Positions 926 to 19,668 are shown, counted from the stretch's first letter. The stretch is DNA of 32,000 bases from Candidatus Saccharimonadota bacterium (GCA_016699205.1 CP064964.1:360001-392000), one strand, 5' to 3'. Program-made: numbers and translations. The notes: generated by a model from the letters alone, not told the origin.

Positions 926-2020
926 TTAGATGACGAGGCGCTTAATCACGAACCAATAGACACGCATCAAGGGATTGCCGATGTAGTCGAGTACGGGATT
1001 GCGGACGGCTTCTTCTTGGAATCGGATATCTGCGACAGCGAGCCGGAGTAATTCACGATCGCCAATGGAACGCGTCGCGCGAATTACCTTGCGACGAGCC
1101 CTGATCCAGCGCCAGAATTTTGGATCAAACCATTCTCGAATTTGTTTCCATTTCATGTCAGACCAACCGTTTTTGATCGAGAACGCCGTGAGCGCGAGGT
1201 CCATAACGAATGCCATTGGAGCGATCAGAAGAAGGGTCCAGAATCGATAATAGGAAAGAACGATCGCCCAGCGATTACGCTCCATCCAGTAGTAATTGAT
1301 TTTGGCTTTTGCGAATTGATAGTGATGCCAGACAATAGAACGCGGCTCAAGCATGATTTTGTAGCCGCGTGATCGAAGACGCAGAGAAATATCCGTGTCC
1401 TCGTGATAGGAAAAGAATTTTTCGTCGAAGAGCGGCTCGCCGCTTAATGCGGAGATACGGACGAGCATGGCGGCACCGGAAGCGTAACCGATTTCTTCAC
1501 GTGTCACGCGGCACGCTTCACGCGTCATACGGTAATCATTCGAATATCCGAACCCAAGAAAATGGTAGGCGTTTCCTGATGAGTTAATTCGATCACGATC
1601 TTGTCCGAGCAGCATGAGCGATTGCACGATGCCGATTTTTTCATCCGACTGTATGCGTTCTACGGCTGTTTTCAAGAACTCGGGATCGACATCGGTATCT
1701 TCATTCAAAAGGTAGATGAATTCACAGCCAAGTTCACGAGCTTTCTCGAGGCCGAGATTATTGTTGCCGGAGAAACCGATTTCTTGATCTCGAAAAATAT
1801 AGGAAATGCGCGGGAGACTTGTTCCGGATTTTGGAAGCCATGTTTGATCAAACCAAGGTTTGATCGGTTCGCGGCTGCCTTTGGACTCGACACAAATAAG
1901 CTCTACGGATTCACGCGGATAATCGAGCTTCTCGAGCGAAGACAAGCATCGATCAATGTCCTCGCGGCCATTGCTCGTTGGAAATGTCAGATAGATAATG
2001 CCGACTTTTGGGAGACTCAT
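926..2020 (-). CDS. family 2 glycosyltransferase with C-terminal membrane segments
   Basis: 364-aa ORF; GT-A N-terminus (VGIIYLTFPT..., LLNEDTDVD DxD-like motif), hydrophobic C-terminal third; ATGA overlap with upstream GT2. Confidence 0.8.
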   Translation of the reverse strand: MSLPKVGIIYLTFPTSNGREDIDRCLSSLEKLDYPRESVELICVESKGSREPIKPWFDQTWLPKSGTSLPRISYIFRDQEIGFSGNNNLGLEKARELGCEFIYLLNEDTDVDPEFLKTAVERIQSDEKIGIVQSLMLLGQDRDRINSSGNAYHFLGFGYSNDYRMTREACRVTREEIGYASGAAMLVRISALSGEPLFDEKFFSYHEDTDISLRLRSRGYKIMLEPRSIVWHHYQFAKAKINYYWMERNRWAIVLSYYRFWTLLLIAPMAFVMDLALTAFSIKNGWSDMKWKQIREWFDPKFWRWIRARRKVIRATRSIGDRELLRLAVADIRFQEEAVRNPVLDYIGNPLMRVYWFVIKRLVI

Positions 2021-2892
2021 ACGAGCATGCGGCTATGCGGAAGACCGAGCTTTTCCAGCTCTTTGCGTCGCTTCCACATGCGAGGAAATGATTTGGCGAG
2101 AGAGAATACGGCGCTCACCCAAACGATTGGCGAGGTAATAAATACAAGGAGTGTTCGAGCCAACTCTTGCGTGAGCGATTTCCAAAAATCTGAAAAACCA
2201 AGAGAAAGCGCTGCGTGCAGGGTGTAGAGATGATGCTGGTTGATGTAGGCGTGACGACGCAGTAGCGCTGGGCGTTTTCTCTCTGCGATAAAGCGCGCGA
2301 CAAAACCACTTCCCTCTTCTTTGATTCCGCGTTTGTGCCAGGCGATGGCGAGCGGCTCAAACCAAGCCATGAAACCGGCGCGCTTTAATCTGATCGCGAG
2401 ATCGACGTCTTCCTTATACATGAACCAGACCGGATCAAAGAGACCGCCGGCTTTCTCGATCGCGGAACGGCGATATATACCGACAGCACCGGAGACACCA
2501 AAGACTTCCCCGGATTCTGGATTGGTTTGGCGGTCAACGACGCGCGCAAGACAACGATACTCGAGACCGGTTGTGTCGATCGTTACTCCGTCCATACGAT
2601 AGACAAGTCCCGTGACGCTTGCGATGCGCTCGTCTGACTCGATGCGCCGCATCGCATGCTCGAGGTATTGCGCATCAAGCTTGGCATCATCGTTTAACAG
2701 CATCACAAATGGCGCGTCATGCTGGCGGTAAAGCGCTGCGTGTCCTCCGGCAAACCCGATATTTTCTTCTACGGCATTATCCCGATACCAAACCTCAAAA
2801 TCACGAAATGTCTGTGCCTCGAGCGAGGCTTTGAGCGCATCAATCGTGTCTTTGCTGTGATACAAAATCACCTGTACGGCAAGTCTCGCCAT
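2017..2892 (-). CDS. family 2 glycosyltransferase
   Basis: 291-aa ORF; LLNDDAKLD DxD-like motif, GT2-type core, C-terminal hydrophobic helix; stop overlaps next start (ATGA). Confidence 0.8.
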   Translation of the reverse strand: MARLAVQVILYHSKDTIDALKASLEAQTFRDFEVWYRDNAVEENIGFAGGHAALYRQHDAPFVMLLNDDAKLDAQYLEHAMRRIESDERIASVTGLVYRMDGVTIDTTGLEYRCLARVVDRQTNPESGEVFGVSGAVGIYRRSAIEKAGGLFDPVWFMYKEDVDLAIRLKRAGFMAWFEPLAIAWHKRGIKEEGSGFVARFIAERKRPALLRRHAYINQHHLYTLHAALSLGFSDFWKSLTQELARTLLVFITSPIVWVSAVFSLAKSFPRMWKRRKELEKLGLPHSRMLV

Positions 2893-2893
2893 A

Positions 2894-3752
2894 TCAATAC
2901 ATCACCATGTCAGCGACTTGCGCCGCAATAAGAACAGCGGGACGAGCGGCGCGAATGACCCACACGCGCCAGCCAGGATGCCACTTCTCAAAGTACGAAA
3001 GCATCGAACGCATGAAATGCGTTTGCTTCCAAAAGAGATGACGCTGCTTGAAACTCTCCCCGACCAAGTCATGCGCGACAATCGATGGCACGTACATGAC
3101 TTTCATATTGTGGAAATGCGCACGCTTGCAATAGTCGACTTCTTCAAACCAAATATAGTAACGCTCATCGAGTGTGCCGAGCTTGTCGAGAGCGGTGCGG
3201 TTGATCGCGAAGTAGGAACCGCGAACGGTGTCAACGGATTGTTCGTGGTCGGGATTTAGATCGAGAGCGTGGTACTTGTCGAGTAAGCGCGGGAACAGTT
3301 TACCGAGCTTGAACATGACAACGAGCTGGTCGCCGATGGTCGGGAAACGTCGGAAATGATGAATTGGTTTTCCGTGTTTGTTGAGAAGTTTGCCGGACAC
3401 GACGGCGACATCAGGATGTGAATCGAGGTACGCGACCGTTTTGGCGAGCGCATCGGCCTCGACGAGCATGTCGGGATTAAGAAGCAGAATGTGTCGCGAG
3501 TTGGAAGCTTCTATTCCTTGGTTGCATGCCTTGGAGAAACCATGATTTTCCGTGTTGGCGATGACGGTGACGTCCGGATAGGAAGCGCGAAGGGCATCGA
3601 CCGTGCCGTCCTTGGAGTGATTATCGACCACGATGATCTCAATATTGACTCCGACTGCTTTTGCGCAGTGAATCGATATTTTTGAGCAAGACATCGCGCA
3701 CGTTCCAAGAAACGATGATGACCGCAAGATCTTTTTGGCTTATTTGGGCCAT
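2894..3752 (-). pseudogene. family 2 glycosyltransferase, frameshifted near N-terminus
   Basis: True GT2 N-terminus MAQISQKDLAVIIVSWNVRDVLLKNIDSLRK is in frame A (ATG 3752, stops at TGA 3639-3641). The rest (AVGVNIEIIVVDNHSKDGT...LLLNPDMLVE...) is in the frame of track ORF 2894..3727. Removing one A from the A4 run (3659-3662) fuses them. Confidence 0.7.
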
Positions 3753-3814
3753 AAATCGTCAATAACCGTAGCATGCTTGGACAAGCCGTCAATCTTGATG
3801 AAAAATGCGGACAT

Positions 3815-4786
3815 ATGCACTTGCTTGTGACGGGAGGCGCTGGATTTATCGGCTCGAACTTTGTTCGATATTGGTTAGCGAATCATCCGGAAGACAAGGT
3901 CACTAATTTGGATGCGCTTACCTATGCAGGTAATCCGCGGAATCTTGATGGGATCGATGGGACCCGCCATACCTTTATTCATGGCGATATACGCGATGTC
4001 GCGACCGTTGAGCGAGCGATGGATGGCGTTGAGATGGTGGTGCATTTTGCCGCCGAGTCGCATGTTGACCGATCGATTGATGGTGCGCGCATCTTTTTGG
4101 AAACAAATGTACTGGGAACGCATACGCTTCTCGAAGAAGTTCGGCGACGCGGCGAACAGATCAAGCGTTTCCATCATATTTCTACCGATGAAGTTTTTGG
4201 GACATTGAATATCAACTCGACGGAAAAGTTTCACGAAGACACGCCTTACGATCCGCGTTCTCCGTATAGCGCATCGAAGGCAGCGAGCGATCATATTGTG
4301 CGGTCGTATTTCCATACGCATGGATTGCCCGTGACGATCTCGAACTGTTCGAACAATTACGGCCCGTATCATTTTCCAGAAAAACTGATTCCGCTCATGA
4401 TCGTGAATGCGATGCGTGATATTCCCCTCCCCGTTTATGGCGATGGCATGAACATTCGCGACTGGATTCATGTTGAAGATCACTGTGCTGGAATCGAGGC
4501 GGTGTTATCGAATGGAAAAGTTGGTGAGACGTATTGTCTTGGTGGAAATGCGGAACGACACAATATTGATGTGGTGAAACAGATTCTTGAGCTGACGGGG
4601 AAACCGGAGTCGTTGATCAAATATGTGGAGGATCGAAAGGGACATGATCGACGGTATGCGATTGATTCAAGTAAAGCGAAGAAGGAATTGGGGTGGGTGC
4701 CGAAGAAGACGTTCGAACAAGGTTTGAAAGAGACGGTTGAGTGGTACAAGAATAATGAGAATTGGTGGAGGCCGTTGGTGAAATAA
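3815..4786 (+). CDS. rfbB: dTDP-glucose 4,6-dehydratase
   Basis: Track ORF 3773..4786; conserved start MHLLVTGGAGFIGSNFV at ATG 3815; YSASKAASD (YxxxK) and the rest typical of RmlB. Confidence 0.9.
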   Translation: MHLLVTGGAGFIGSNFVRYWLANHPEDKVTNLDALTYAGNPRNLDGIDGTRHTFIHGDIRDVATVERAMDGVEMVVHFAAESHVDRSIDGARIFLETNVLGTHTLLEEVRRRGEQIKRFHHISTDEVFGTLNINSTEKFHEDTPYDPRSPYSASKAASDHIVRSYFHTHGLPVTISNCSNNYGPYHFPEKLIPLMIVNAMRDIPLPVYGDGMNIRDWIHVEDHCAGIEAVLSNGKVGETYCLGGNAERHNIDVVKQILELTGKPESLIKYVEDRKGHDRRYAIDSSKAKKELGWVPKKTFEQGLKETVEWYKNNENWWRPLVK

Positions 4787-5280
4787 AATTCAGAACGCCC
4801 GCACGGAGTTATCCATGCGGGCGTTGTAGTTGTGGTCAGGGGACTGATCTCGCGGAAGGCGACGAAGCCACCGTCGAAATCACTCATGCCAGCGTAAAAC
4901 AATGTACGTCTGACCACGATATTTCTGTAGTAGGCCACAAACGTATCTTCTCTGGCGGCTCTGCCATGCAGCTCGAGTGTTGGGTGCATGCGGTGGATTG
5001 AAACCCAAACACCCAAAGGCTGCTTTTGCAACAGCCACATGATGAAGGCCGCCGTATTACCCTGGAAGCCGAAGGTACGGAAGTACTCTTGGATCTCATC
5101 TTGGTCCACATAGCAACCCGGTGACCAAGTCATTGCCTCGTATCGCTTCCCGGGCTCGTCCCTCATGAAATCACACTGTCTCGTAAGGTCCTCAGGACTG
5201 GTGAGCTTGAGCTCTCGCTCAGCGAGCTTTGCCATGTCCTTGGCCGTGACATTCGTCGGAATCTGCACAAAATCCATCAC
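4480..5280 (-). CDS. hypothetical protein; 3' third runs through a terminator and antisense into rfbB
   Basis: SD AAGGAG (5285-5290) 4 nt before ATG 5280; the first ~165 codons look coding (GC3-rich); no in-frame stop until 4480. Confidence 0.45.
   Translation of the reverse strand: MMDFVQIPTNVTAKDMAKLAERELKLTSPEDLTRQCDFMRDEPGKRYEAMTWSPGCYVDQDEIQEYFRTFGFQGNTAAFIMWLLQKQPLGVWVSIHRMHPTLELHGRAAREDTFVAYYRNIVVRRTLFYAGMSDFDGGFVAFREISPLTTTTTPAWITPCGRSEFYFTNGLHQFSLFLYHSTVSFKPCSNVFFGTHPNSFFALLESIAYRRSCPFRSSTYLINDSGFPVSSRICFTTSILCRSAFPPRQYVSPTFPFDNTASIPAQ
4794..4825. terminator. 10-bp hairpin after rfbB, with a U-tract on the minus-strand side
   Basis: AACGCCCGCA (4794-4803) pairs with TGCGGGCGTT (4816-4825). 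On the minus strand it is followed by CTGAATTTTATTT. Confidence 0.55.
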
Positions 5281-5315
5281 GACTCTCCTTTTCTTCCCTA
5301 AATTAGGGACTTGAT

Positions 5316-5344
5316 AAAATAGCTTATTTTTATCGCTTTGTCAA
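5316..5344 (-). promoter_or_regulatory. sigma70-like promoter for 4480..5280
   Basis: Minus strand TTGACA (5339-5344), 17 nt spacer, TATTTT (5316-5321). A second TTGACA on the plus strand (5348-5353) forms the inverted repeat TGTCAA-CCG-TTGACA. Confidence 0.4.
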
Positions 5345-5402
5345 CCGTTGACACCTGCTCGAAATGTCGGTGCTTTTGGTGTAAGACAAAGGCTGAAATC
5401 GT

Positions 5403-7028
5403 ATGAAAATCCTTGTTTTTGGATCAAAAGGCTTTATCGGCGGGCGCATGCTCGAGACATGGCCGGAAGCCGTAGGGACGGATGCGCGTATCGATGATAA
5501 GGCGGCTGTTTTGAAAGCCATCGACGAGCATAAGCCGGATGCCGTCGTGAATGCCGCTGGTCGCACGGGACGGCCGAATGTGGATTGGTGCGAGACGCAT
5601 CAGGTCGAGACGATGCATGACAACGTGATCGGTGCGTTGATTTTGGCGGAGGCGTGTCAGGAACGCGGAATCTACATGCTGCATCTTTCAAGCGGCTGTG
5701 TGTTTTATGGCGACTCCCCTGATCCACGCGGCTGGAAGGAAGATGATCATGCCAATCCGAGCGCGACGTATTCTCGCGCCAAGTACGCAGCCGAGCTTCC
5801 GCTCATGACGTATCCAAATGTTTCGATTGTGCGTTTGCGCATGCCGATCGATGAGCGTCCGGGTGAGCGCAATCTCATCGACAAGCTCGCGAAGTACAAA
5901 CAAGTGATCGACGTGACAAATAGCGTGACCGTTATCAAAGATTTGGTCGATGTTTGCTATCAGCTCATTCAGCGCAAAGCGACGGGTATTTTCCACGCCG
6001 TGAATCCGGGCATCATGCGTCATCGTGATTTGATGAGCTTGTACCGAGAACTTGTCGACCCAAATCACCAGACCGAGTGGATTACGGAACAAGATTTGGT
6101 TGCGAAAGGATTGGCTACAAAGAAACGTTCCAACAACATCATGCAGAGCGATCGCTTGAAGGCGCTCGGGATTGAGATGCGTCCGATTGATATCGCTTTG
6201 CGCGATACGATGATGAAGTATGCGGCTACGAAACGCGCGAGTGAGAGACCGGCTGTGCCGAGTTTTCTCGCAAGTCCTCAACAGAATATGGATCGGAACA
6301 ATGCACCATCAACAACGAAGCGGATGAAGGGCGTTATTCTTGCAGGCGGAAAAGGTACGCGACTCGCGCCGCTTACAAATATTACGAACAAGCATCTGCT
6401 CCCCGTTGCTGATAAGCAGATGGTGCTCTATCCCCTTCAGACGCTGCTTGATGCCGGGATTCGCGAGATCCTGATTGTAACCGGACCTGACCATGCAGGA
6501 CATTTCATGAACTTGCTCGGAAGCGGTTCCAAACTTGGATGCCGACTTACGTATCGTGTTCAAGATGAGGCTGGAGGCATTCCACATGCACTCGCCTTGG
6601 CTGAAGACTTTGTCGGTGATGACCATGTGACCGTCATCCTTGGCGACAATATCTTTGAAGATAATTTCTCGGCTCCGATCAGCTCATTCCAGAGCGGCGC
6701 GGTTACTTTCTACAAAGCTGTACCTGATGCACACCGTTTTGGCGTGGTTGAAATCGATGCATACGGACATGTGATCTCGATCGAAGAAAAACCACAAAAT
6801 CCTAAAACGAACTTCGCGCAGGCTGGCCTCTACATCTATGACAGCGGCGTCTTTGACATCATCCGCCATCTCCGACCATCGGGACGCGGCGAGCTTGAAA
6901 TTGTCGATGTGAACAATGCGTATTTACAGAAGCGACAGCTCGTCGCTAAGCCGGTCCGTGGATTCTGGACGGATGCGGGAACGTTTGAGAGTCTCCAGCG
7001 CGCCAACGAGTATTTCTCAAAAAAGTAG
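5403..7028 (+). CDS. fusion protein: NRS/ER-type dTDP-4-keto-6-deoxyhexose 3,5-epimerase/4-reductase (N-terminal) plus glucose-1-phosphate thymidylyltransferase RmlA (C-terminal)
   Basis: Single 541-aa frame. N-terminal domain: GSKGFIGG, NAAGRTGRPNVDWCETHQVET, YSRAKY, VRLRMPI. C-terminal domain from ATG 6324: MKGVILAGGKGTRLAPLT...ILGDNIF...GLYIYD. TAG stop. Confidence 0.85.
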   Translation: MKILVFGSKGFIGGRMLETWPEAVGTDARIDDKAAVLKAIDEHKPDAVVNAAGRTGRPNVDWCETHQVETMHDNVIGALILAEACQERGIYMLHLSSGCVFYGDSPDPRGWKEDDHANPSATYSRAKYAAELPLMTYPNVSIVRLRMPIDERPGERNLIDKLAKYKQVIDVTNSVTVIKDLVDVCYQLIQRKATGIFHAVNPGIMRHRDLMSLYRELVDPNHQTEWITEQDLVAKGLATKKRSNNIMQSDRLKALGIEMRPIDIALRDTMMKYAATKRASERPAVPSFLASPQQNMDRNNAPSTTKRMKGVILAGGKGTRLAPLTNITNKHLLPVADKQMVLYPLQTLLDAGIREILIVTGPDHAGHFMNLLGSGSKLGCRLTYRVQDEAGGIPHALALAEDFVGDDHVTVILGDNIFEDNFSAPISSFQSGAVTFYKAVPDAHRFGVVEIDAYGHVISIEEKPQNPKTNFAQAGLYIYDSGVFDIIRHLRPSGRGELEIVDVNNAYLQKRQLVAKPVRGFWTDAGTFESLQRANEYFSKK

Positions 7029-7032
7029 TCTT

Positions 7033-7059
7033 GTCATTCCAGCGAAGGCTGGAATCCAG
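7033..7059 (+). repeat. 27-nt palindromic repeat element (GTCATTCC...GGAATCCAG family)
   Basis: GTCATTCCAGCGAAGGCTGGAATCCAG; internal hairpin TTCCAGC-GAAG-GCTGGAA. Related copies at 7096, 28668 and 28716. Confidence 0.65.
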
Positions 7060-7095
7060 TCCAGCTCATCAGAACATTTATTCGATCTAGCTCAG

Positions 7096-7122
7096 CTGGA
7101 TTCCCGTTTTCACGGGAATGAC
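7096..7122 (-). repeat. 27-nt palindromic repeat element, inverted copy
   Basis: Plus strand CTGGATTCCCGTTTTCACGGGAATGAC, reverse complement GTCATTCCCGTGAAAACGGGAATCCAG. Same termini as 7033 but a different, self-complementary core. Confidence 0.65.
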
Positions 7123-7130
7123 ATAAGAGC

Positions 7131-7139
7131 TGATATACT
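7131..7139 (+). promoter_or_regulatory. extended -10 promoter (TGaTATACT), 6 nt before ATG 7146
   Basis: TGATATACT then CTCCCC then ATG; no SD. Confidence 0.4.
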
Positions 7140-7145
7140 CTCCCC

Positions 7146-8279
7146 ATGTCCAAACGTATTGTCATTATCGGAGGCGGTTTTGCTGGATTACGTGCCGCGG
7201 GCTTGCTCGCTAAACGCGGTAACGATTTCAAGGTCATCTTGATTGACATGCGCCACGAGTTTACATTCTCGCCTTGGCTTATCGACGCATTAGCGGGTGA
7301 AAAATCAGCCAAAGAATACACGATCGACCTTGAAACGATTTCAAAACGCGATGGCTTTACCTTTATTCAGGGTGTTGCGAACCGTATCGATCGAGAGGCA
7401 AAAACGGTCGATGTCCAGGATGAGAAAGAGATGCGCAGCATCGGTTATGATTGCCTGATTAATTGCCCTGGCGCAAAGACGGCCTACTATAATATTCCAG
7501 GCGCTAAAGAGCATTCATTGCCGCTTAAAACGACTGATGATGTCAGTGTCATTCATCAGCGCATCGAGGATTTGGTTGCCAAAGGAACGGCTCTCAATAT
7601 CGCTGTTGTAGGAGCGGGTCCAAGCGGCGTTGAAAGCCTGTTTGCGTTGCGATCCTTTGTGGATCAAGCCTGTGCAAAAGCCGGAAAGCCAGAAATAGCC
7701 AAGGCTTCCGCCTTTAGTCTCGTGCAGGGAGCTCCGCAAATCTTGCCCGGATTCCCAAATACGATTGTCGATGGATCGATGCGCGAGCTGGGCGCCAAGG
7801 GTTTTCGCGTGTATCTCGGTGAACCCGTGTCGGAAGTAACCAGTGAAGTTGTCAAAACGAGCAAGGGCTCCGTTATTCCAGCGAATCTTGTCTTGTGGTG
7901 TGCCGGCATTGAAGCGAATCTCGTTCCTGTTGAGCCGACCGTGATCGCGGATCGGGCTGGGTATGCCATCGATAGAAACTTAGCGATTGAACCAATGGTC
8001 TTTTCCGGCGGTGATGCCGCGAATTACAAGGAAACGAATGTCGTTATCCCCAAGAATGCACAGACCGCTATGCCGATGGGTCTGTGTTTGGCAGAAAATG
8101 CCGCTCGAGCTTGCCAGGATTTGCCACCCATCAACTTTACGTATGCCAATCGAGGTAACTTGATTCGTTTGGGTGAAACAGGTTTCTTGGATTTTCGCTT
8201 ATTTTGCGTAAAAACATCACTTGCACCACGCATTCGTAATTGGTTTTATAAGATACGCTTCACACAAATGGATAGCTAA
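7146..8279 (+). CDS. ndh: NDH-2-like FAD-dependent pyridine nucleotide-disulfide oxidoreductase
   Basis: 377 aa; two dinucleotide folds (IVIIGGGFAGL, IAVVGAGPSGVE); GGDAA motif near the C-terminus; overall NDH-2 layout. Confidence 0.7.
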   Translation: MSKRIVIIGGGFAGLRAAGLLAKRGNDFKVILIDMRHEFTFSPWLIDALAGEKSAKEYTIDLETISKRDGFTFIQGVANRIDREAKTVDVQDEKEMRSIGYDCLINCPGAKTAYYNIPGAKEHSLPLKTTDDVSVIHQRIEDLVAKGTALNIAVVGAGPSGVESLFALRSFVDQACAKAGKPEIAKASAFSLVQGAPQILPGFPNTIVDGSMRELGAKGFRVYLGEPVSEVTSEVVKTSKGSVIPANLVLWCAGIEANLVPVEPTVIADRAGYAIDRNLAIEPMVFSGGDAANYKETNVVIPKNAQTAMPMGLCLAENAARACQDLPPINFTYANRGNLIRLGETGFLDFRLFCVKTSLAPRIRNWFYKIRFTQMDS

Positions 8280-8321
8280 ACTATCCACAGGGAAAAATTT
8301 ATAGAATTTTTATGCTCGGCA

Positions 8322-8330
8322 TGCTATTTT
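8322..8330 (+). promoter_or_regulatory. extended -10 promoter (TGcTATTTT), 6 nt before ATG 8337
   Basis: TGCTATTTT then ATCTGC then ATG; no SD. Confidence 0.35.
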
Positions 8331-8336
8331 ATCTGC

Positions 8337-10487
8337 ATGAAATCGATCTTCTTAAGGTTGCTCTTGGTATTAGGTTCCCTCGTTTCTTGGCTAGCATTTC
8401 CACTACTCGCTTGGGCCATGTCAGCGACGAATGTCCAGCCGGCAAACCTTGTAAAAAGCAACCGTACGACGGTGACACTCACCTTCACGATTGCTGCATC
8501 TCTTCCGGCTGACGGAAAGGTAAAGACCATCTTCCCAGCAGGCTTTTCCGTTGCTTCGGCATCAAATGGAACATGCTCAACGATGAACGGCGGATTCTTC
8601 ACATCTGTTTCCGGTCAAACCGTTACCATTACACGTGATGGGAGCGGAACATTGGAACCGGTAGGTGCGCAGACCTGCACAATCAGCAATATCTCCAATC
8701 CTTCATCAACGGGGAGTGCTGGGCTATACACCATCCAAATCACAAACTCCTCCGATACCGTGCTCGACCAGGATACCGCTGTCACCGCAGACACGATCGT
8801 TGCGACTGGAACAATCTCCGTTACAAACGTTATTCCGGAAAATCAAGTCGCGAATACCGTTAGCCGCTACACAGCAAACTTCACCACCGTTAACAATCTG
8901 AGCGCCGATGGGCGGATTAAACTCACATTTCCCCCTGGTTTTGATGTTTCCGGTGCTCATAGCCCTCACTGTTCCACAATGGATGGTGCTTTTTCAGTTT
9001 CAACATCCGGGCAAGACGTCTTGATTTCTCGTAGTGCGACGGGGACCTCGCAGCCTGGAGCCGCTGAATCGTGCTTTGTTCGCGGTATTAAAGCGCCAGC
9101 AGACCCCACAACGAACGCTGGCGCGTACGCCATCGAGACGCAAGACGGTTTAGGTAATCCGACCGACTCTACATCCACCATTCTTGGCGATTCCTTTTTT
9201 GCTTCAACAACGCTTACAACCACCAATGTTGCCCCTGCCTCACTTATCGCCGGCGCCGTTACCCTCAATACCATCACATTTACAACGGTAACAACGACGC
9301 CGATTGGCGCCAAAATTCGTATCACCTACCCGAGCGGCTTCACTCTTCAGTCCACATCAACAGCCGACTGTACAACGATCGCCGGAACGGAAACCACGAG
9401 CATTACTGGCAATATCATCACGATACAGACAAATATCACAGCCGGTGAAGCCGCTGGCGCCGAAAGCTGTACGCTCACTGGCGTCATGAATCCCACGGTA
9501 AGCGGTTCAACCGGCGTTTACTCAATCGAAGTACTCGATGAATCAACGGATAATAATGTTGTTGCAAGCAATCTTGCGGTAACAGCGGACACGATCACGC
9601 CGGGCACGCTTACCGCGACGGACATCGCACCGGAAAATCTTGTCACGAGCTCAACGCAGTTACATACGGTTCTTTTTACGACCGTAAACCCGATCCCAGC
9701 AGACGGAAAAATCATCATCTCGTATAACGCCGGATTCTCCACTACCTCATCCAATAGCGCTACTTGTTCCGGCCTCGATGGATCGATTACGACGACAACG
9801 AGCACAAACCAAATTATTCTTACACGATCCGGCGGAACAACGTCGACTGCTGGCGGCTCTGTGGAATGTCTGATTCGCGATGTCAGAAATCGACAAACGG
9901 CCGGCGCGAGCGGTTTTTACAATGTAACAACGACGAATGCAGCGATGACAGCGATTGATTGGGCGCCCGTAGCCGCCGATACCTATATCGCTCCGGTAGC
10001 GCTTACCGCTGGCAATGTTCAGCCTGTCAGCCTTGTACAAAGCGTGATCAATGACCACGATATCGAGTTCACTTCAAGCGTAAACATCCCGCAGGAAGCC
10101 GTGATCCGTATTACGTATGGCGCTGGTTTTAACCTTACAGGAGCCGCGAGCAGCTCCTGCGCCGGAATTGATGGCGACTTGAGTATGAGTACAAGCGGCC
10201 AAACACTTATTCTCACACGAAACGCCTCTGGAACAACTATTGGTGCGTCCGCGAGAACTTGCCGCGTGCTTGGTATTAGGAATCCGACTACAGCAGGTTC
10301 AACCGGCACTTATACCATCACCGTCTTTGATAAAAGCGGTGTCGTGATGGGTACGGTTGCGGCTACCGCAGATACCATCACTGTTCCAGGCACGCTCACC
10401 GCTCCCGATGTCAGTCCGGCGAGCCTTGTTTCGGCAACATTGATCCTGACACACTTCTTGTTGGTGCAACGGGGACAGCCAGCCTAA
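8337..10487 (+). CDS. secreted tandem-repeat surface protein, N-terminal part (signal peptide plus repeats 1-5 and start of 6)
   Basis: Signal peptide MKSIFLRLLLVLGSLVSWLAFPLLAWA; ~131-aa repeats start at about 8421, 8814, 9213, 9609, 10002 and 10395; the frame is lost after DVSPASLV and ends at TAA 10485. Confidence 0.8.
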   Translation: MKSIFLRLLLVLGSLVSWLAFPLLAWAMSATNVQPANLVKSNRTTVTLTFTIAASLPADGKVKTIFPAGFSVASASNGTCSTMNGGFFTSVSGQTVTITRDGSGTLEPVGAQTCTISNISNPSSTGSAGLYTIQITNSSDTVLDQDTAVTADTIVATGTISVTNVIPENQVANTVSRYTANFTTVNNLSADGRIKLTFPPGFDVSGAHSPHCSTMDGAFSVSTSGQDVLISRSATGTSQPGAAESCFVRGIKAPADPTTNAGAYAIETQDGLGNPTDSTSTILGDSFFASTTLTTTNVAPASLIAGAVTLNTITFTTVTTTPIGAKIRITYPSGFTLQSTSTADCTTIAGTETTSITGNIITIQTNITAGEAAGAESCTLTGVMNPTVSGSTGVYSIEVLDESTDNNVVASNLAVTADTITPGTLTATDIAPENLVTSSTQLHTVLFTTVNPIPADGKIIISYNAGFSTTSSNSATCSGLDGSITTTTSTNQIILTRSGGTTSTAGGSVECLIRDVRNRQTAGASGFYNVTTTNAAMTAIDWAPVAADTYIAPVALTAGNVQPVSLVQSVINDHDIEFTSSVNIPQEAVIRITYGAGFNLTGAASSSCAGIDGDLSMSTSGQTLILTRNASGTTIGASARTCRVLGIRNPTTAGSTGTYTITVFDKSGVVMGTVAATADTITVPGTLTAPDVSPASLVSATLILTHFLLVQRGQPA

Positions 10488-11218
10488 CCTTGAGTGCAAC
10501 GAACCGTATTCCGCAAGATGGAAAATTTGATATATCATTCCCTGCCGGCTACTACATCGGCGCCGTTGCAACGAGCACGATCTCTTGTAGCGGCTTAACT
10601 GGCACACTCACCTATTCTGTCTCGGGACAGACCATAACAGCGCTACGCGTTGGCGGCACCACATCGACGGAGAGCCCTTCCATCTCCTGCTTGATCCCAG
10701 ATGTCCGAAACCCATTAATCAGCGGTTCTGCTGGAACTTACTCATTGCGCACCAAGTCTTTTGGCGATATCACCATCGACGAGAACACCGCCATCTCCGC
10801 GGACAGCTTCTCTTCTTCCGGGACACTTACTTCCACGAACGTTCAGCCGACAAGCCTTGCTGTTAACGCAACAACTAACAACACGATTAGCTTTACTCAA
10901 GCGCTTGGTATTCCAGCGAGCGGCACCATTCAAGTCACCTATCCTGCAAGCTTTGTATTGTCCTCCGTTTCAGGCGCCTCATGCTCAAGCTTGGACGGCA
11001 CTATTACAGCCAGTGTAAGCAGCACAACTGTTATTCTCACCCGTTCCGGAGGCACAGCTGAACCTGCCGGACCCCAAACCTGTACGATCACGGGCGTGAA
11101 AAATCCATCAGGCGCAGGGTCTGCTGGTACTTACGGAATTGCTACCTATACATCTGACGACCTGCTGATCGAGCAAGATGCGTCCGTGTCAGCAGATACC
11201 TTTACTAGCGGCTCGACG
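8421..11218 (+). repeat. seven tandem coding repeats, period ~393-399 nt (~131-133 aa)
   Basis: Each unit: (L)T.TNV.P..L...(16 aa)..(I/L)P.DG.I.I.(F/Y)P.GF...C(S/T)..(D/N)G....SGQ...(I/L).R.....C.(I/V)..(I/V).NP...G(S/T).G.Y.(I/L)....AD(T/S). Diverged at nucleotide level. Confidence 0.85.
10425..10456 (+). other. 32-nt insertion or local duplication bounded by CTTGTT direct repeats, splitting the surface-protein gene
   Basis: CTTGTT at 10425-10430 and 10457-10462. Deleting 10425..10456 gives ...PASLVGATGTASLTLSATNRIP..., in frame and at almost the spacing seen in the other repeats (15 residues between the SLV motif and IP, against 16-17). Confidence 0.6.
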
Positions 11219-12154
11219 AGCGGCGGTGGAGGCGGAGGCGGAGGTTATAGCGGCCCGATTACCACCACCTTCCAGACATCAGGCGATACGACTGCTATTC
11301 GCGCTCAAATCGAGGCGCGCCTCAAAACACTACCAGTTGCCGTACATACACTGATCAAGCTGCCAGACGACAAGAACCCTAAGACGCAAGAAGACAGCGC
11401 CGTCTACTACGTGGGCGCTGATGGACTTCGTCACGCCTTCTCAAATAGCAAAACGTATTTTTCTTGGTACTGCGACTTTGGGGGCGTGCAGGTCGTCAAC
11501 GCCTCGACCATGGCCTCTATCGGACTGGGCAAGAATGTCCCCTATCGACCTGGCATGCGCTTGGTAAAATTTACGACTGACTCCAAGGTCTACATCGTAA
11601 CCAAGGGAGGTATTCTCCGAGCGATTCCAAGCGAAGCCTTTGCTAAACAACTCCTTGGAGACACGTGGAACAAGCAGATCGATGATATCTCCGATGCCTT
11701 CTACACGGATTACATTTTTGGAGCAGAAGCGGTCACGGTGAGTGAATTTACGCCTTCTGCGCTAGCAAAAACCGTTACCTATCCAAGCGATAGTTTGCGT
11801 ATCATCGGAAATACGGAGAGCGGGGTTCTTACGAGCTTACCGGTCTGCTCGACCAACTCCCCCGCCGCTTCCCAGCCGAGTACCTCAGCATTCAAGCGTC
11901 CGACCACCATTCCATCCGGCTTCACCTTCACGACAAATCTCTCAACCGCTTCACCCTCATCAACAGAGATCCGCTATCTCCAATACGTTCTTATCGCTCT
12001 GGGTAGCACGATCTATCCCGAGCAGCGGTCAACCGGGAACTTTGGTCCAGCTACGGAAGCTGCCCTCAAAAACTTCCAGCGAGCAAATGGGATTGAAGCT
12101 AGTGGTCAAACAGATGCGGCGACACGCAACAAACTCAATGCATTAATCAAATAA
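10490..12154 (+). CDS. same surface protein, C-terminal part (rest of repeat 6, repeat 7, Gly8 linker, middle domain, PG_binding_1 domain)
   Basis: Frame is open from 10334 and continues the repeat (LTLSATNRIPQDGKFDISFPAGY). It has no signal peptide of its own and only a TTG start. Gly8 at 11222-11245. C-terminal EIRYLQYVLIALG...GNFGPATEAALKNFQRANGIEASGQTDAATRNKL resembles PG_binding_1. Confidence 0.75.
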   Translation: MSATNRIPQDGKFDISFPAGYYIGAVATSTISCSGLTGTLTYSVSGQTITALRVGGTTSTESPSISCLIPDVRNPLISGSAGTYSLRTKSFGDITIDENTAISADSFSSSGTLTSTNVQPTSLAVNATTNNTISFTQALGIPASGTIQVTYPASFVLSSVSGASCSSLDGTITASVSSTTVILTRSGGTAEPAGPQTCTITGVKNPSGAGSAGTYGIATYTSDDLLIEQDASVSADTFTSGSTSGGGGGGGGYSGPITTTFQTSGDTTAIRAQIEARLKTLPVAVHTLIKLPDDKNPKTQEDSAVYYVGADGLRHAFSNSKTYFSWYCDFGGVQVVNASTMASIGLGKNVPYRPGMRLVKFTTDSKVYIVTKGGILRAIPSEAFAKQLLGDTWNKQIDDISDAFYTDYIFGAEAVTVSEFTPSALAKTVTYPSDSLRIIGNTESGVLTSLPVCSTNSPAASQPSTSAFKRPTTIPSGFTFTTNLSTASPSSTEIRYLQYVLIALGSTIYPEQRSTGNFGPATEAALKNFQRANGIEASGQTDAATRNKLNALIK

Positions 12155-12155
12155 C

Positions 12156-12183
12156 AAAAACTCCCGCCTAGGCGGGAGTTTTT
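12156..12183. terminator. bidirectional rho-independent terminator
   Basis: AAAAA-CTCCCGCC-TA-GGCGGGAG-TTTTT between convergent genes; the nadR TAG stop (12168-12170) spans the end of the left stem arm and the 2-nt loop. Confidence 0.7.
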
Positions 12184-13205
12184 GTTTGCAGGAGACGATC
12201 GACGGCTTTGCAGGCTTGATCAAATCGCTGCTGCCAGTTGCCAGAAATTTTTACGAATGGGCGGCCTCGGCGGATCAATTCCATTTCCAGCCACTTATGA
12301 TGCGCTTCGCGCTTTTCTTGCTCGGGCATCGCGCGTTGATGATCATCGACCCAAGGCGTGTCGGGCGATAAGAGGATGTAGAGATCATATTTGCGGCGCT
12401 CGGCTTCTGTCGCAATCCAGTCAGGGCATTTACCGAAGAAGAAATCGGACCAGTAAACCGTTGTAATGAGATCGGTGTCGCAGAATAGGAGACGGTTGGC
12501 TCGGCGGGCCATCGCGTCTTCCGTAACGATTTGCCCGCGGGCAATGGTTGCGATGTCTTCTTCACGAACTTCACCTGGTTTATATCCGCGATTTGCTACA
12601 TATTCATCGAGGAGACGGCGGGCGTATTCATCGACAAAAGGCGTTTCGTATTTCTCTGCCAAGAGTTTGGCCATGGTTGATTTTCCGACCGATTCCGGAC
12701 CAACGAGACAGACACGTTTTACAAAGTAAGGCCGAACAACGGAAGGAATATATTTCCAGTTCTCCATCGGATCGGTGCGTACGGCGGTTCCGGAAACAGG
12801 TACCAGGTCGCGCAAGCGGTTTACCGGGATATATTGGATTCCCATTTTTTCTGCCATCTTCCAGCCGTAGTCCTCGGAACCAAAGAGGGCGTCGAATTCT
12901 TCATCGGGGCAATGGCGCTTGATGCTGCCGTTCCAAATCGACCAAAAGTTTGGGTCCTCGGAAGGATCTTGCGGAATATCGATGTAGTGGTGGACGACAT
13001 TGGCCGCGGGAAACATTTCTTTCACCCATTGGAAGCGCACCTCGCCCGGGATCGGCTCTGTCGGGAGCGAGCAGACGAGGATCGTAAGACGCTGGCACGA
13101 TTGCTGTGCAAAACGAAGGAGATGGATGTGGCCGTCATGCAACGGCATGAATTTTCCAAAGACGAGGCCGGAGCCAAGCTTTTTTCCCGGGATCATTTTT
13201 TCCAT
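12168..13205 (-). CDS. nadR: NadR-type NMN adenylyltransferase / ribosylnicotinamide kinase (no HTH domain)
   Basis: Track ORF 12168..13313; likely start ATG 13205, 1 nt after the pnuC stop. GKFMPLHDGH nucleotidyltransferase motif; Walker A GPESVGKST in the C-terminal kinase half. Confidence 0.8.
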   Translation of the reverse strand: MEKMIPGKKLGSGLVFGKFMPLHDGHIHLLRFAQQSCQRLTILVCSLPTEPIPGEVRFQWVKEMFPAANVVHHYIDIPQDPSEDPNFWSIWNGSIKRHCPDEEFDALFGSEDYGWKMAEKMGIQYIPVNRLRDLVPVSGTAVRTDPMENWKYIPSVVRPYFVKRVCLVGPESVGKSTMAKLLAEKYETPFVDEYARRLLDEYVANRGYKPGEVREEDIATIARGQIVTEDAMARRANRLLFCDTDLITTVYWSDFFFGKCPDWIATEAERRKYDLYILLSPDTPWVDDHQRAMPEQEKREAHHKWLEMELIRRGRPFVKISGNWQQRFDQACKAVDRLLQTKTPA

Positions 13206-13979: not shown

Positions 13980-14053
13980 TCCGAGATCGTCTAACGGTAG
14001 GACTAATGCCTCTGGAGCATTGTATCTTGGTTCGAATCCAAGTCTCGGAGCCA
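13980..14053 (+). tRNA. tRNA-Gln (anticodon CUG), CCA encoded
   Basis: Hand-folded cloverleaf: acceptor TCCGAGA/TCTCGGA (U1-A72, G73), D stem GTCT/GGAC, anticodon stem AATGC/GCATT with loop CTCTGGA, T arm CTTGG-TTCGAAT-CCAAG. Confidence 0.85.
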
Positions 14054-14669: not shown

Positions 14670-14746
14670 TGGTGCGCGCACGTAGATTCGAACTACGGAC
14701 CTTCACAATGTCAATGTGACGCTCTAACCAACTGAGCTATGCGCGC
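14670..14746 (-). tRNA. tRNA-Val (anticodon GAC), CCA encoded
   Basis: Reverse complement GCGCGCA-TA-GCTC-AGTTGGTT-AGAGC-G-TCACA-TTGACAT-TGTGA-AGGTC-CGTAG-TTCGAAT-CTACG-TGCGCGC-A-CCA. Confidence 0.9.
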
Positions 14747-15507: not shown

Positions 15508-16995
<1,488 letters not shown>

Positions 16996-17166: not shown

Positions 17167-17982
17167 TTATTTTTCCGCTTGGCTTAGGGCCAAAGTTAGA
17201 TCACGCCATTGGTCTGGGGAAAGGTCCTCTGCGCGAATCTTGGCGGAAATGCCTAATTCCTCTAGCTGATTGCCCTTGATTCCCAGGTTGGAAGCCAAGA
17301 GTTTGCGAGGATGGGCAAAGCCTTTCTTGGCCAGAGCCATGATGTACTCAGGGTCGATGCCCCAAATCGCCACGCGCTCCTCAATGGACATAGGACTTAC
17401 TCTTAGGACGGCTGACTCGACTTTAGGTGGCGGAAAAAATGCTCCTTGCGCAACACGTCTTACAAGACGCGTTTCATGCGATGCATACGCGACCATCAGC
17501 GAGAGCAGCGACTGTTTTTTATTCCGTGCAACAATTCTCTCCGCGACTTCACGCTGGATTAATACTACTAAATTATTAGGCGGATTTTTTGCGTAGAGTG
17601 CTTTGCGGATCGCGAGTGATGTTATCGAGTACGGAAGGTTGGAAACAAATTTCCACTCCCCTTCTCCGACTACAGCATCCCAATCGAGTTTTTCGGCATC
17701 GCCTTGCGTGATGTTCAAGTGTGCCGGGCATTTGTTTTCAAGATAGCCGATGAAGCGGCGGTCGCGTTCAATCGCCCTTACCTCTGCACCGACCTCAATT
17801 AAGGCACCTGTCAGTACACCGAGTCCTGGGCCGATCTCAAGCACCTGATCTCCTGGCTCGATTTCTGCCTCCTCGACGATCGAGGCGAGCGTGGTTTTAT
17901 CGATCAAAAAATGCTGGCCGAGACCTTTATTGGCCCCGCCGCCGAATTGGGCTAGAACAGCCTTGATTTCCGTAGGATTCAT
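17167..17982 (-). CDS. rsmA: 16S rRNA (adenine1518/1519-N6)-dimethyltransferase
   Basis: 271 aa; KGLGQHFL, VLEIGPGLGVLT SAM motif, SNLPY; typical KsgA length. Confidence 0.9.
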   Translation of the reverse strand: MNPTEIKAVLAQFGGGANKGLGQHFLIDKTTLASIVEEAEIEPGDQVLEIGPGLGVLTGALIEVGAEVRAIERDRRFIGYLENKCPAHLNITQGDAEKLDWDAVVGEGEWKFVSNLPYSITSLAIRKALYAKNPPNNLVVLIQREVAERIVARNKKQSLLSLMVAYASHETRLVRRVAQGAFFPPPKVESAVLRVSPMSIEERVAIWGIDPEYIMALAKKGFAHPRKLLASNLGIKGNQLEELGISAKIRAEDLSPDQWRDLTLALSQAEK

Positions 17983-17983
17983 T

Positions 17984-19636: not shown

Positions 19637-19668
19637 CAATATCCCACTGTCGCTACATTGGCAACATT

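What the first reader, a model, noticed from the sequence alone, without database searches (positions are those of the whole stretch)
8337..12154. Large secreted protein of seven ~131-aa two-cysteine repeats with a peptidoglycan-binding anchor (S-layer/adhesin candidate)
Seen in sequence:
- A clear signal peptide ending AWA.
- Seven tandem units, each with NV.P..L, an (I/L)P.DG.I.I.FP.GF strand motif, a first Cys in C(S/T)..(D/N)G, SGQ..(I/L).R, a second Cys ~30 residues later, then NP..(S/A)G..G.Y and AD(T/S).
- The units are well diverged at DNA level, so they are not an assembly artefact.
- Then follow a Gly8 run with mixed GGN codons, a ~230-aa domain (VYYVGADGLRHAFSNSKTYFSWY...), and a C-terminal module resembling PG_binding_1.
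- Composition is extremely Thr/Ser/Ala/Gly-rich.

I cannot place the repeat in a named domain family from memory. The architecture (secretion signal, beta-rich repeats, wall anchor) suggests an abundant surface-layer or attachment protein.
Basis: partly seen in the sequence, partly recalled or inferred. Interest (0 to 1): 0.65.

Follow-up and report, generated by a model that had tools for sequence, protein, structure and literature searches.

The report
Broken wall-anchored Ig-repeat surface protein gene
This is the gene for a large cell-surface protein of a tiny candidate-phylum bacterium (Uhrbacteria), normally built from eight antibody-like domains plus a cell-wall anchor, but in this genome a 361-base deletion has removed one domain and broken the reading frame.

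Summary
But 8337-12154 is not one ORF. It splits at 10431-10434 into ORF-A (8337-10487, 716 aa) and ORF-B (10490-12154, 554 aa). Four independent assemblies of near-identical strains carry an intact 1392-aa gene with EIGHT repeats. The window lacks 361 nt (3x120+1): most of repeat 6, cut out of register with 3 nt of microhomology. One strain's gene is otherwise 100% identical.

The repeat has no Pfam or NCBIfam model. AlphaFold gives a confident Ig-like beta-sandwich (pLDDT 97), and its best PDB matches are only generic (TM 0.5-0.64). The two Cys are all-or-none across 371 repeats, which implies a disulfide. The family is large (4,601 clusters) and combines with PG_binding_1, SLH or LysM anchors. 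Orthologues always have eight repeats in 1:1 correspondence.

Best reading: a Sec-exported, non-covalently wall-anchored rod-like surface protein of a Candidatus Uhrbacteria bacterium, present here as a loss-of-function allele or, less likely, an assembly error. An S-layer role is untested. This is a new member of a known kind, of moderate interest.

The parts
8337..8417 (+). Sec-type signal peptide (27 aa, ...AWA|MSATN)
   Evidence: Sequence shows a K/R n-region, a hydrophobic core and an AxA site. It is conserved in orthologues. No predictor was run.
8418..8813 (+). Repeat 1 (the distal, N-terminal domain, and the most conserved one among orthologues)
   Evidence: HMM i-E 1.1e-51. Identity to the same-numbered repeat in orthologues is 61-69%.
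8814..9212 (+). Repeat 2
   Evidence: HMM i-E 8.4e-40.
9213..9608 (+). Repeat 3
   Evidence: HMM i-E 7.4e-38.
9609..10001 (+). Repeat 4
   Evidence: HMM i-E 2.4e-41.
10002..10394 (+). Repeat 5 (the unit that was modelled)
   Evidence: HMM i-E 7.7e-41. AlphaFold2 gives pLDDT 97.3 and pTM 0.89, with about 10 beta strands.
10395..10433 (+). 13-aa stub of native repeat 6 (LTAPDVSPASLVS)
   Evidence: Alignment to P0001 and L002.
10431..10434 (+). Deletion junction. 361 nt present in L001, L002, L014 and L015 are missing. There is 3 nt of microhomology (CGG), and T10431 matches neither flank.
   Evidence: blastn and manual alignment.
10434..10487 (+). Out-of-frame tail of ORF-A (17 aa) and its TAA stop codon (10485-10487)
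   Evidence: Translations.
10436..10825 (+). Native repeat 7, in frame 2 and no longer joined to the signal peptide
   Evidence: HMM i-E 3.2e-38. Frame shown.
10826..11218 (+). Native repeat 8
   Evidence: HMM i-E 7.2e-48.
11222..11245 (+). Gly8 linker with mixed GGN codons
11384..11734 (+). Uncharacterised ~120-aa alpha/beta module (AVYYVGADGLRHAF...DYIFG). It also occurs as the C-terminal module of other repeat-bearing proteins.
   Evidence: HMM 1.3e-55. Recurs in 11 paralogous architectures that lack PG_binding_1. No Pfam or PDB sequence hit. Only weak fold hits to EccB1 and a Rhodococcus phage protein.
11735..11959 (+). Linker region, partly helical and then Ser/Thr/Pro-rich and disordered
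   Evidence: pLDDT below 50 for residues 202-214 of the C-terminal model.
11960..12136 (+). PG_binding_1 peptidoglycan-binding domain
   Evidence: Pfam PF01471, E 1.6e-12, 47.8 bits against a cut-off of 23. Superimposes on 5tv7, 6tci, 4c2h and 1lbu at 1.5-2.4 A over about 70-78 residues.
12153..12186 (.). Bidirectional intrinsic terminator hairpin (15-bp stem), shared with the convergent downstream gene

Best explanation
The locus is the gene for a large surface protein of a Candidatus Uhrbacteria (Patescibacteria/CPR) bacterium.

Intact form: 1392 aa, and the mature protein is about 138 kDa with pI 4.8. The proposed mechanism is:
- It is exported by Sec and cleaved after AWA27.
- Outside the cell it folds into eight consecutive ~131-aa Ig-like beta-sandwich domains. 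Each is stapled by one disulfide (strand 4 to strand 7).
- A Gly8 hinge follows, then an uncharacterised ~120-aa alpha/beta module, a disordered Ser/Thr/Pro linker and a C-terminal PG_binding_1 domain.
- PG_binding_1 holds the protein non-covalently on the cell's own peptidoglycan.
- The eight domains project from the wall as a rod tens of nm long. Repeat 1, the most conserved, sits at the distal tip. The most likely role is adhesion or surface-coat formation.

In this window: a 361-nt (3x120+1) out-of-register deletion removed repeat 6 and shifted the frame.
- Only a 716-aa product can be exported: signal peptide, repeats 1-5, a 13-aa stub and 17 junk residues. It has no anchor.
- The 3' half (repeats 7-8 plus anchor) has no signal peptide.
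- This copy is therefore a very recent loss-of-function allele, or less likely an assembly error.

Shown: the gene structure, the deletion, the domain family, the fold class, Cys co-occurrence, PG_binding_1 and the fixed eight-repeat orthology.
Inferred: export, disulfide formation, wall binding, rod geometry and the adhesive or coat function.
For: Split ORFs and frames.

Intact allele in other assemblies:
- The 8-repeat, 1392-aa allele occurs in JGI 3300056827 and 3300056825 (L001, L002), and in NCBI GCA_963851785.1 (L015).
- NCBI GCA_020051655.1 (L014) is a partial gene that spans the deletion site.

The deletion:
- It is exactly 361 nt, with CGG microhomology.
- The L015 gene is identical to the window's except for the deletion and one junction base.
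- Repeats share no exact word longer than 12 nt, so this is not a k-mer collapse.
- There is no slippery heptamer or homopolymer in the frame-overlap region, so recoding is not supported.

The repeat domain:
- AlphaFold2 gives pLDDT 97.3 and an all-beta model.
- Foldseek matches Ig-like sandwiches: YcnI, BslA, cohesins, the pilins BcpA/EbpB/SpaD, and the adhesins Sgo0707/SpaP/Als. E is 5e-5 to 1e-3 and TM is about 0.4-0.64.
- The Cys pair is present in 208 repeats, absent in 160, and single in 3.

Anchor and architecture:
- PG_binding_1 is confirmed by Pfam and by structure.
- The same repeat is combined with PG_binding_1, SLH, LysM and other extracellular domains in relatives.
- Twelve proteins, P0001-P0012, all have 8 repeats. 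P0001-P0010 share this protein's C-terminal region.
- Repeats correspond 1:1 with the three orthologues tested, and R1 is the best conserved.
- A terminator lies right after the stop codon.

Taxonomy: orthologues carry Uhrbacteria or Patescibacteria record titles.
Against: - There is no expression, localisation or binding data.
- Fold matches are generic (about 12% identity, TM <= 0.64), so no specific function can be transferred.
- There is no distinct N-terminal 'adhesive' domain as in classical fibrillar adhesins.
- The deletion is seen in only one assembly, and no reads were available, so an artefact is not excluded.
Confidence: 0.72

Rival explanations
1. The intact protein is the S-layer (glyco)protein of the cell. 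It would be an abundant, lattice-forming coat protein anchored by PG_binding_1, possibly O-glycosylated by the neighbouring rhamnose and glycosyltransferase genes.
For: - The protein is acidic (pI 4.8) and 28% Ser+Thr.
- Three GT2 genes, an epimerase and an RmlD-RmlA fusion lie immediately upstream, and this arrangement is conserved in the closer orthologous loci L003-L005.
- Relatives with the same repeat carry SLH domains, and one is named 'S-layer homology domain-containing protein'.
- From memory: CPR cells show S-layers in cryo-EM, and S-layer glycosylation clusters with rml genes sit next to S-layer genes in some Firmicutes.
Against: - The mature protein has 18 Cys. From memory, classical S-layer proteins are Cys-poor.
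- The architecture is a linear array of eight individualised Ig-like domains, typical of fibrillar surface proteins.
- Synteny with the sugar genes is lost in more distant orthologues L006 and L007.
- A null allele appears to be tolerated in one strain.
- No abundance data exist.
Confidence: 0.2
2. The 361-nt deletion and frameshift are an assembly or consensus artefact. The organism actually carries the intact eight-repeat gene.
For: - The allele is otherwise 100% identical to the intact L015 gene.
- The deletion is seen only in this assembly, while four other assemblies are intact.
- The junction carries a base that matches neither flank.
Against: - Repeats are only 50-59% identical at DNA level and share no word longer than 12 nt, so de Bruijn or overlap collapse between repeats is not expected.
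- 3-nt microhomology plus one untemplated base is what real illegitimate recombination looks like.
- The record is a 1.08-Mb contig on which both halves were annotated as separate proteins.
Confidence: 0.3
3. The array is a cohesin-like scaffold (an anchoring scaffoldin) that docks other secreted proteins onto the wall, rather than an adhesin or coat protein.
For: Cohesin modules are among the Foldseek hits (2xdh, 6kgf, 2jh2, 5n5p, 2w1n; E 9e-5 to 2e-3). Tandem modules plus SLH or PG-binding anchors resemble the architecture of anchoring scaffoldins (knowledge of cellulosomes is from memory).
Against: - There is no hit to the Pfam Cohesin family, even at E<=10, in the two window repeats scanned individually. 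There is also none at E<=0.1 in any of the 87 scanned repeats.
- TM scores to cohesins (0.39-0.57) are no better than to pilins, BslA or YcnI.
- No dockerin partners were identified.
Confidence: 0.05
4. The two frames are joined in vivo by programmed -1 frameshifting or transcriptional slippage, or the locus acts as a phase-variation switch.
For: The frames overlap by about 150 nt (10334-10487), so a -1 shift anywhere in that stretch would give a 1272-aa product. The ORF-B TTG start lies 2 nt after the ORF-A stop codon.
Against: - There is no X XXY YYZ heptamer and no homopolymer of 5 or more in the overlap.
- The shift coincides exactly with a deletion relative to otherwise identical intact alleles.
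- Reinitiation at the TTG would give a product without a signal peptide.
Confidence: 0.02

Closest known systems
Gram-positive fibrillar adhesins and pilins built of tandem Ig-like domains (e.g. BcpA 3rkp/3kpt, SpaD 4hsq, EbpB 9lr7, Sgo0707 4igb, SpaP/SspB 3opu/2wza)
   Same: Both have a signal peptide, a linear array of ~100-150-aa beta-sandwich domains projecting from the wall, and a C-terminal wall attachment. These proteins gave Foldseek hits with E 1e-4 to 2e-3.
   Different: - There is no LPXTG sortase motif or hydrophobic tail. Anchoring is non-covalent through PG_binding_1.
- Domains are stabilised by a disulfide, not an isopeptide bond. The candidate Lys is absent from 4 of the 8 repeats.
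- There is no distinct tip adhesin domain.
- There is no Cna_B or SpaA Pfam match.
- Sequence identity is about 12%.
Cell-wall-anchored S-layer proteins (SLH-, CWB2- or PG-binding-anchored)
   Same: Both are acidic, Ser/Thr-rich, secreted and non-covalently wall-bound. Paralogous architectures use SLH anchors. Sugar-biosynthesis genes lie adjacent.
   Different: This protein has 18 Cys and is a beads-on-a-string Ig array. It has no SLH domain itself. Lattice formation and abundance are unknown.
BslA (4bhu) and YcnI/DUF1775 (7me6): single-domain Ig-like extracellular proteins
   Same: These are the best Foldseek matches, with TM 0.55-0.64 and E 5e-5 to 2e-4.
   Different: - They are single-domain proteins with specific functions: a hydrophobin cap, and a Cu-binding His brace.
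- No column in the repeat family has His above 5%.
- Identity is 12-16%.
- They do not form tandem arrays.
PG_binding_1-containing proteins (SleB 6tci, CtpB 4c2h, Zn DD-peptidase 1lbu, C. difficile PG-binding protein 5tv7, phage endolysins)
   Same: The C-terminal ~60-70 aa is a bona fide PG_binding_1 three-helix module.
   Different: In those proteins the module targets an enzyme to peptidoglycan. Here it anchors a non-enzymatic repeat array.
Cohesin-bearing anchoring scaffoldins
   Same: Both have tandem ~130-140-aa beta-sandwich modules plus a wall anchor. Cohesins are among the fold hits.
   Different: There is no Cohesin Pfam match. No dockerin partners are known. TM is only about 0.4-0.57.

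Membership tests
PG_binding_1 (PF01471) | Sequence match above the Pfam gathering threshold | tested here: met
   47.8 bits against a cut-off of 23, E 1.6e-12, covering profile positions 2-57 of 57.
PG_binding_1 (PF01471) | Three-helix-bundle fold that superimposes on solved PG-binding domains | tested here: met
   RMSD 1.5-2.4 A over about 70-78 residues to 5tv7, 4c2h, 6tci and 1lbu. Helices lie at residues 240-301 of the model.
PG_binding_1 (PF01471) | Actual binding to peptidoglycan | not testable with these tools
   Requires a sacculus pull-down.
Any curated repeat/Ig-like domain family (Pfam Big_x, Cna_B, Cohesin, DUF11, CARDB, fn3; NCBIfam) | Repeat units score above a family's threshold | tested here: not met
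   There were no hits for the whole ORFs or for single repeats. Of 87 diverse repeat instances, at most 2 touch any one model, all with E>0.002.
Ig-like beta-sandwich fold class | All-beta two-sheet sandwich with significant structural matches to Ig-like domains | tested here: met
   pLDDT 97.3 with 10 strands. 35 PDB hits at E<=1e-3, all Ig-like sandwiches, with TM up to 0.64.
Sortase-anchored (LPXTG) MSCRAMM/pilin adhesins | C-terminal LPXTG motif followed by a hydrophobic segment and a positively charged tail | tested here: not met
   The only [LI]Px[TSA][GAN] match is the internal IPASG at aa 979. The C-terminus is the PG_binding_1 helix ...NKLNALIK.
Sortase-anchored (LPXTG) MSCRAMM/pilin adhesins | Conserved Lys/Asn(Asp)/Glu triad for an intramolecular isopeptide bond | tested here: inconclusive
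   The best Lys column is 70% conserved family-wide, but that Lys is missing in 4 of this protein's 8 repeats. The geometry could not be measured.
SLH-anchored S-layer proteins | SLH domains (PF00395) | tested here: not met
   No SLH hit in this protein. SLH is present only in other proteins that share the repeat.
S-layer proteins (functional class) | Self-assembly into a 2-D lattice and very high abundance | not testable with these tools
   Needs cryo-ET, proteomics or in-vitro assembly.
Cohesin / scaffoldin | Cohesin (PF00963) sequence signature and dockerin-bearing partners | tested here: not met
   No Cohesin hit at E<=10 in the two window repeats scanned, or at E<=0.1 in any of the 87 repeats. 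Partners were not searched for.
YcnI/DUF1775 copper-binding domain | Conserved N-terminal His brace | tested here: not met
   No alignment column has more than 5% His across 371 repeats.
Disulfide-stabilised domain | The two Cys co-vary (both present or both absent) | tested here: met
   208 repeats have both, 160 have neither and 3 have one. Fisher p is about 1e-103. Mixed states occur within single proteins.

The most novel reading that the evidence does not exclude
The protein could be the principal host-contact (or phage-receptor) determinant of these presumably episymbiotic Uhrbacteria.
- One allele has recently swept by recombination through strains whose flanking genes differ by 1-6%.
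- The low-divergence tract matches the gene cassette from promoter to terminator.
- Fresh loss-of-function deletions such as the one in this window would then arise under counter-selection, for example from phage or from a host switch.

The ~131-aa disulfide-stapled domain would then define a large, uncurated adhesion-module family of CPR bacteria. The family also occurs in some stramenopile eukaryotes.
Probability: 0.15. Interest if true: 0.65.

Novelty: new member of a known kind. Interest (0 to 1): 0.38.

Why it matters
How CPR/Patescibacteria build their envelope and attach to hosts is poorly understood, and almost none of their surface proteins are characterised.

- **An uncurated domain family.** This locus defines a confidently foldable, disulfide-stapled Ig-like domain. 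The family has thousands of members but no Pfam or NCBIfam model. That is useful for annotation and gives a concrete candidate for envelope or attachment studies.
- **A natural knockout.** Otherwise identical intact and broken alleles coexist among near-identical strains, which provides a natural knockout contrast.
- **A population-genetic signal.** The gene-sized trough of divergence hints at recombination-driven spread of a surface-protein allele.
- **An annotation correction.** The two 'proteins' deposited for this genome (716 and 554 aa) are fragments of one disrupted gene.

Tried and rejected
- **Programmed frameshift or slippage.** The frame-overlap region has no slippery heptamer and no homopolymer. 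The shift coincides with a deletion.
- **In-register repeat recombination or assembly collapse.** The breakpoints are 9 aa plus 1 nt out of register, with only 3 nt of microhomology. Repeats share no word longer than 12 nt.
- **Curated-family assignment of the repeat.** Pfam and NCBIfam were negative on whole ORFs, on single repeats and on 87 diverse instances. The PDB sequence profile gave a best E of 0.07.
- **Middle module identity.**
  - Pfam and the PDB profile were negative.
  - Foldseek gave only weak matches: EccB1 at E 2e-3, and an uncharacterised Rhodococcus phage protein at TMt 0.69.
  - The word-indexed homologue search returned only short unannotated fragments.
- **Independent confirmation of the deletion junction.** The metagenome-contig scan found 0 hits. 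The positive control (the intact junction) also found 0, so the collection lacks these samples and the test is uninformative.
- **Exact look-up of ORF-A in the contig index.** Nothing was found, although the sequence is in the protein collection.
- **Literature.** The paper search failed five times and paper reading failed once, all on time-outs. No paper could be consulted, so statements about CPR envelopes, S-layer composition and cellulosomes rest on my own knowledge.
- **ABC-ATPase 'deletion' at 19647-19669.** It first looked like a second lesion, but the intact-gene strain L015 lacks the gene too, so it is lineage variation.

Full report
**1. Observation**

The interval 8337-12154 does not hold one ORF. 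The ORF listing gives ORF-A at 8337..10487 (716 aa) and ORF-B at 10490..12154 (554 aa), in a different frame. Three-frame translation of 10341-10582 shows frame 0 running into TAA at 10485-10487. The repeat sequence continues in frame 2, which is open from 10334.

Joining the frames at 10433 gives a 1272-aa model. It has repeat starts at aa 32, 164, 297, 429, 560, 691/701 and 835. The Cys pairs are about 34 residues apart, and T+S+A+G make up 47% of residues.

These reader observations are confirmed:
- the signal peptide (MKSIFLRLLLVLGSLVSWLAFPLLAWA|MSATN);
- the Gly8 run at 11222-11245, which uses mixed GGN codons;
- PG_binding_1 at E 1.6e-12;
- the DNA-level divergence of the repeats, at 50-59% identity with no TRF array.

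The single-ORF claim and the count of seven native repeats are not confirmed.

**2. The frameshift is a 361-nt deletion**

The best homologue, P0001 (1392 aa), is nearly identical to the window's product. It contains a complete extra repeat exactly where the window changes frame.

DNA from two JGI metagenomes (L001, L002; the latter on a 1.11-Mb contig) aligns to the window at about 98.4%. Window 1-10434 matches L 1665-12098, and window 10432 onward matches L 12457 onward. So 361 nt (3x120+1) are missing.

The junction reads GTT-T-CGG-CAAC. There are three bases of microhomology, and T10431 matches neither flank. The breakpoints lie 13 aa into repeat 6 and about 3 aa into repeat 7, so they are out of register.

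Two further independent assemblies are intact at this site: NCBI GCA_020051655.1 (L014) and GCA_963851785.1 (L015, a 1.07-Mb contig). The L015 gene is identical to the window's over all 3.8 kb except for the deletion and the junction base.

The window's two ORFs are deposited in nr as separate proteins on a 1.08-Mb contig.

Three points bear on how the break arose and what it does:
- Repeats share no exact word longer than 12 nt, so k-mer collapse is unlikely.
- The overlap region has no slippery heptamer or homopolymer, so recoding is unsupported.
- ORF-B's TTG start lies 2 nt after ORF-A's stop codon. Even if translation reinitiated there, the product would lack a signal peptide.

I conclude that this is a very recent loss-of-function allele (about 0.7) or an assembly error (about 0.3). 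I tried to find the junction in the metagenome collection, but the test was uninformative because the positive control also failed.

**3. The repeat domain**

An HMM built from the eight P0001 units finds 492 instances in the 90 homologues, at 1-15 copies per protein. An exhaustive profile search of 1.84 billion representatives finds the following:
- 4,601 proteins at E<=1e-3;
- 1,874 at E<=1e-10;
- 525 at E<=1e-30;
- among them, giant proteins with 30-40 copies.

No curated family covers the repeat. Pfam and NCBIfam are negative on the ORFs, on single repeats and on 87 diverse instances. The PDB sequence profile gives nothing below E 0.07.

AlphaFold2 on repeat 5 with an 87-sequence alignment gives pLDDT 97.3 and pTM 0.89, with about ten strands. 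Foldseek against the PDB returns only Ig-like sandwiches, at E 5e-5 to 1e-3, TM about 0.4-0.64 and roughly 12% identity. The hits are:
- YcnI and BslA;
- cohesins;
- a CLIPPER domain;
- the pilins BcpA, EbpB and SpaD;
- the adhesins Sgo0707, SpaP and Als.

This places the repeat in a known fold class, with no close solved relative.

The two Cys are all-or-none. Of 371 repeats, 208 have both, 160 have neither and 3 have one, and both states occur within single proteins. This is strong evolutionary evidence for a disulfide. No column is His-rich, and the best Lys column is unoccupied in half of this protein's repeats. That argues against a YcnI-like copper site and against obligatory isopeptide bonds.

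**4. Array organisation**

The 12 closest homologues (P0001-P0012) all have exactly eight repeats. P0001-P0010 also share this protein's C-terminal region.

Same-numbered repeats are 37-69% identical across the three orthologues tested (43-69% in all but one comparison). Different-numbered repeats are 23-48% identical. The array is therefore ancient and individualised, not a homogenised stalk of variable length. Repeat 1, the distal one, is the most conserved at 61-69%.

**5. C-terminal region**

A model of the last 302 aa has pLDDT 81.
- *PG_binding_1.* The final ~70 aa superimpose on solved PG-binding domains (5tv7, 6tci, 4c2h, 1lbu) at 1.5-2.4 A. They also match many phage endolysin wall-binding modules.
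- *Middle module.* The ~120-aa module at 11384-11734 recurs as the C-terminal module of 11 other repeat-bearing proteins that lack PG_binding_1. It has no Pfam or PDB sequence relative. Its only fold matches are weak or uninformative: EccB1 (E 2e-3), and a Rhodococcus phage protein of unknown function (TMt 0.69).
- *Its role.* The position suggests, but does not show, a second wall-association module.

**6. Context and organism**

Orthologous loci carry record titles of Candidatus Uhrbacteria or the Patescibacteria group. The lineage is Patescibacteria > Parcubacteria > Ca. Uhriibacteriota.

Upstream lie three GT2 genes, an epimerase, an RmlD-RmlA fusion and a Pyr_redox_2 gene. Downstream and convergent lie NadR-like and PnuC genes. 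The upstream synteny is kept in L003-L005 but not in the more distant L006 and L007. A perfect 15-bp terminator hairpin follows the stop codon.

**7. Mechanism and rivals**

The shown and inferred steps of the mechanism are listed under Best explanation.

The S-layer reading (about 0.2) draws on the acidic pI, the Ser/Thr richness, the adjacent sugar genes and SLH-bearing relatives. It is weakened by the 18 Cys, the beads-on-a-string architecture, the limited synteny and the apparently tolerated null allele.

A cohesin-like scaffold (about 0.05) and recoding (about 0.02) have little support.

**8. Comparison and novelty**

In working principle the protein resembles the tandem-Ig fibrillar surface proteins of Gram-positive bacteria. 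It differs in three ways:
- it has a non-covalent PG_binding_1 anchor instead of LPXTG;
- its domains are stabilised by disulfides instead of isopeptide bonds;
- it has no separate tip domain.

It fails the sequence membership tests for every curated Ig-like family. It is best filed as a new member of a known kind, built from a domain family that has not yet been curated.

Interest is moderate (0.38). The find is valuable for annotation and as a candidate CPR envelope or attachment protein, but the architecture is not surprising, and in this window the gene is broken.

**9. Limits**

The paper tools timed out on all six attempts, so I could not check for prior descriptions. Model coordinates, sequencing reads and expression data were not available.

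Noticed in passing
window ~8249-12336 (L002 9913-14361): There is a gene-sized trough of strain divergence. The surface-protein cassette, from about 90 nt upstream of the ATG to about 180 nt past the stop codon, differs by 0.16% from L002 and 0.03% from L015. That is as low as the 16S rRNA (0.13-0.27%). Adjacent genes differ by 1.2-6.2% (RmlD/A 3.1% and 6.2%, Pyr_redox 1.3% and 4.1%, NadR 4.4% and 1.2%). This suggests recent recombination or a gene-specific sweep.
   Followed up: partly
window 19647-19669 versus L002 21672-23639: About 23 nt in the window replace about 1.97 kb that in L002 encodes a 610-aa ABC_tran ATPase. L001 has two smaller genes there. L015 lacks the gene, like the window. 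This is a presence/absence polymorphism among strains.
   Followed up: partly
window 15508-16994 (-), 14670-14746 (-), 13980-14053 (+): There is a complete 16S rRNA gene with no 23S rRNA anywhere in the 32-kb window. tRNA-Val(GAC) lies downstream of it and tRNA-Gln(CTG) is nearby. This looks like an unlinked rRNA arrangement.
   Followed up: no
L001 ~17620-19000 versus L002: L001 and L002 are identical over the first 17.6 kb but differ by 30-35 sites per kb, plus indels, inside the 16S rRNA region. This may be a chimeric 16S assembly in one of the two JGI contigs.
   Followed up: no
window 5403-7028 (+): A single 541-aa ORF fuses RmlD-like (dTDP-4-dehydrorhamnose reductase) and RmlA-like (nucleotidyltransferase) domains. 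It is the most strain-divergent gene of the neighbourhood, at 6.2% against L015, and one segment (5337-6238) is only 92.9% identical.
   Followed up: no
proteins P0035, P0039, P0061, P0089; P0091-P0104: The same ~131-aa repeat occurs in proteins attributed to stramenopile eukaryotes. These are Triparma, Tetraparma, and a Pythium oligandrum beta-galactosidase fusion on a 2.7-Mb contig with 8-9 repeats (profile E 1.6e-89). It also occurs in giant proteins of 5,400-6,700 aa with 30-40 copies. GTDB hits also include Dehalococcoidia and KSB1/Deferribacteres MAGs. The family is therefore not CPR-specific.
   Followed up: partly
L003, L005, L012: Three TPA MAGs titled 'uncultured Gammaproteobacteria bacterium' carry loci related to this protein. 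L003 and L005 hold clear orthologues with Uhrbacteria-like synteny (rml, GT and Pyr_redox genes), so their taxonomic labels look wrong. L012 holds only a short partial match.
   Followed up: no
window 10485-10492: ORF-A's TAA stop codon and ORF-B's annotated TTG start are separated by only 2 nt (TAA CC TTG). Termination-reinitiation is conceivable, but the product would lack a signal peptide.
   Followed up: partly
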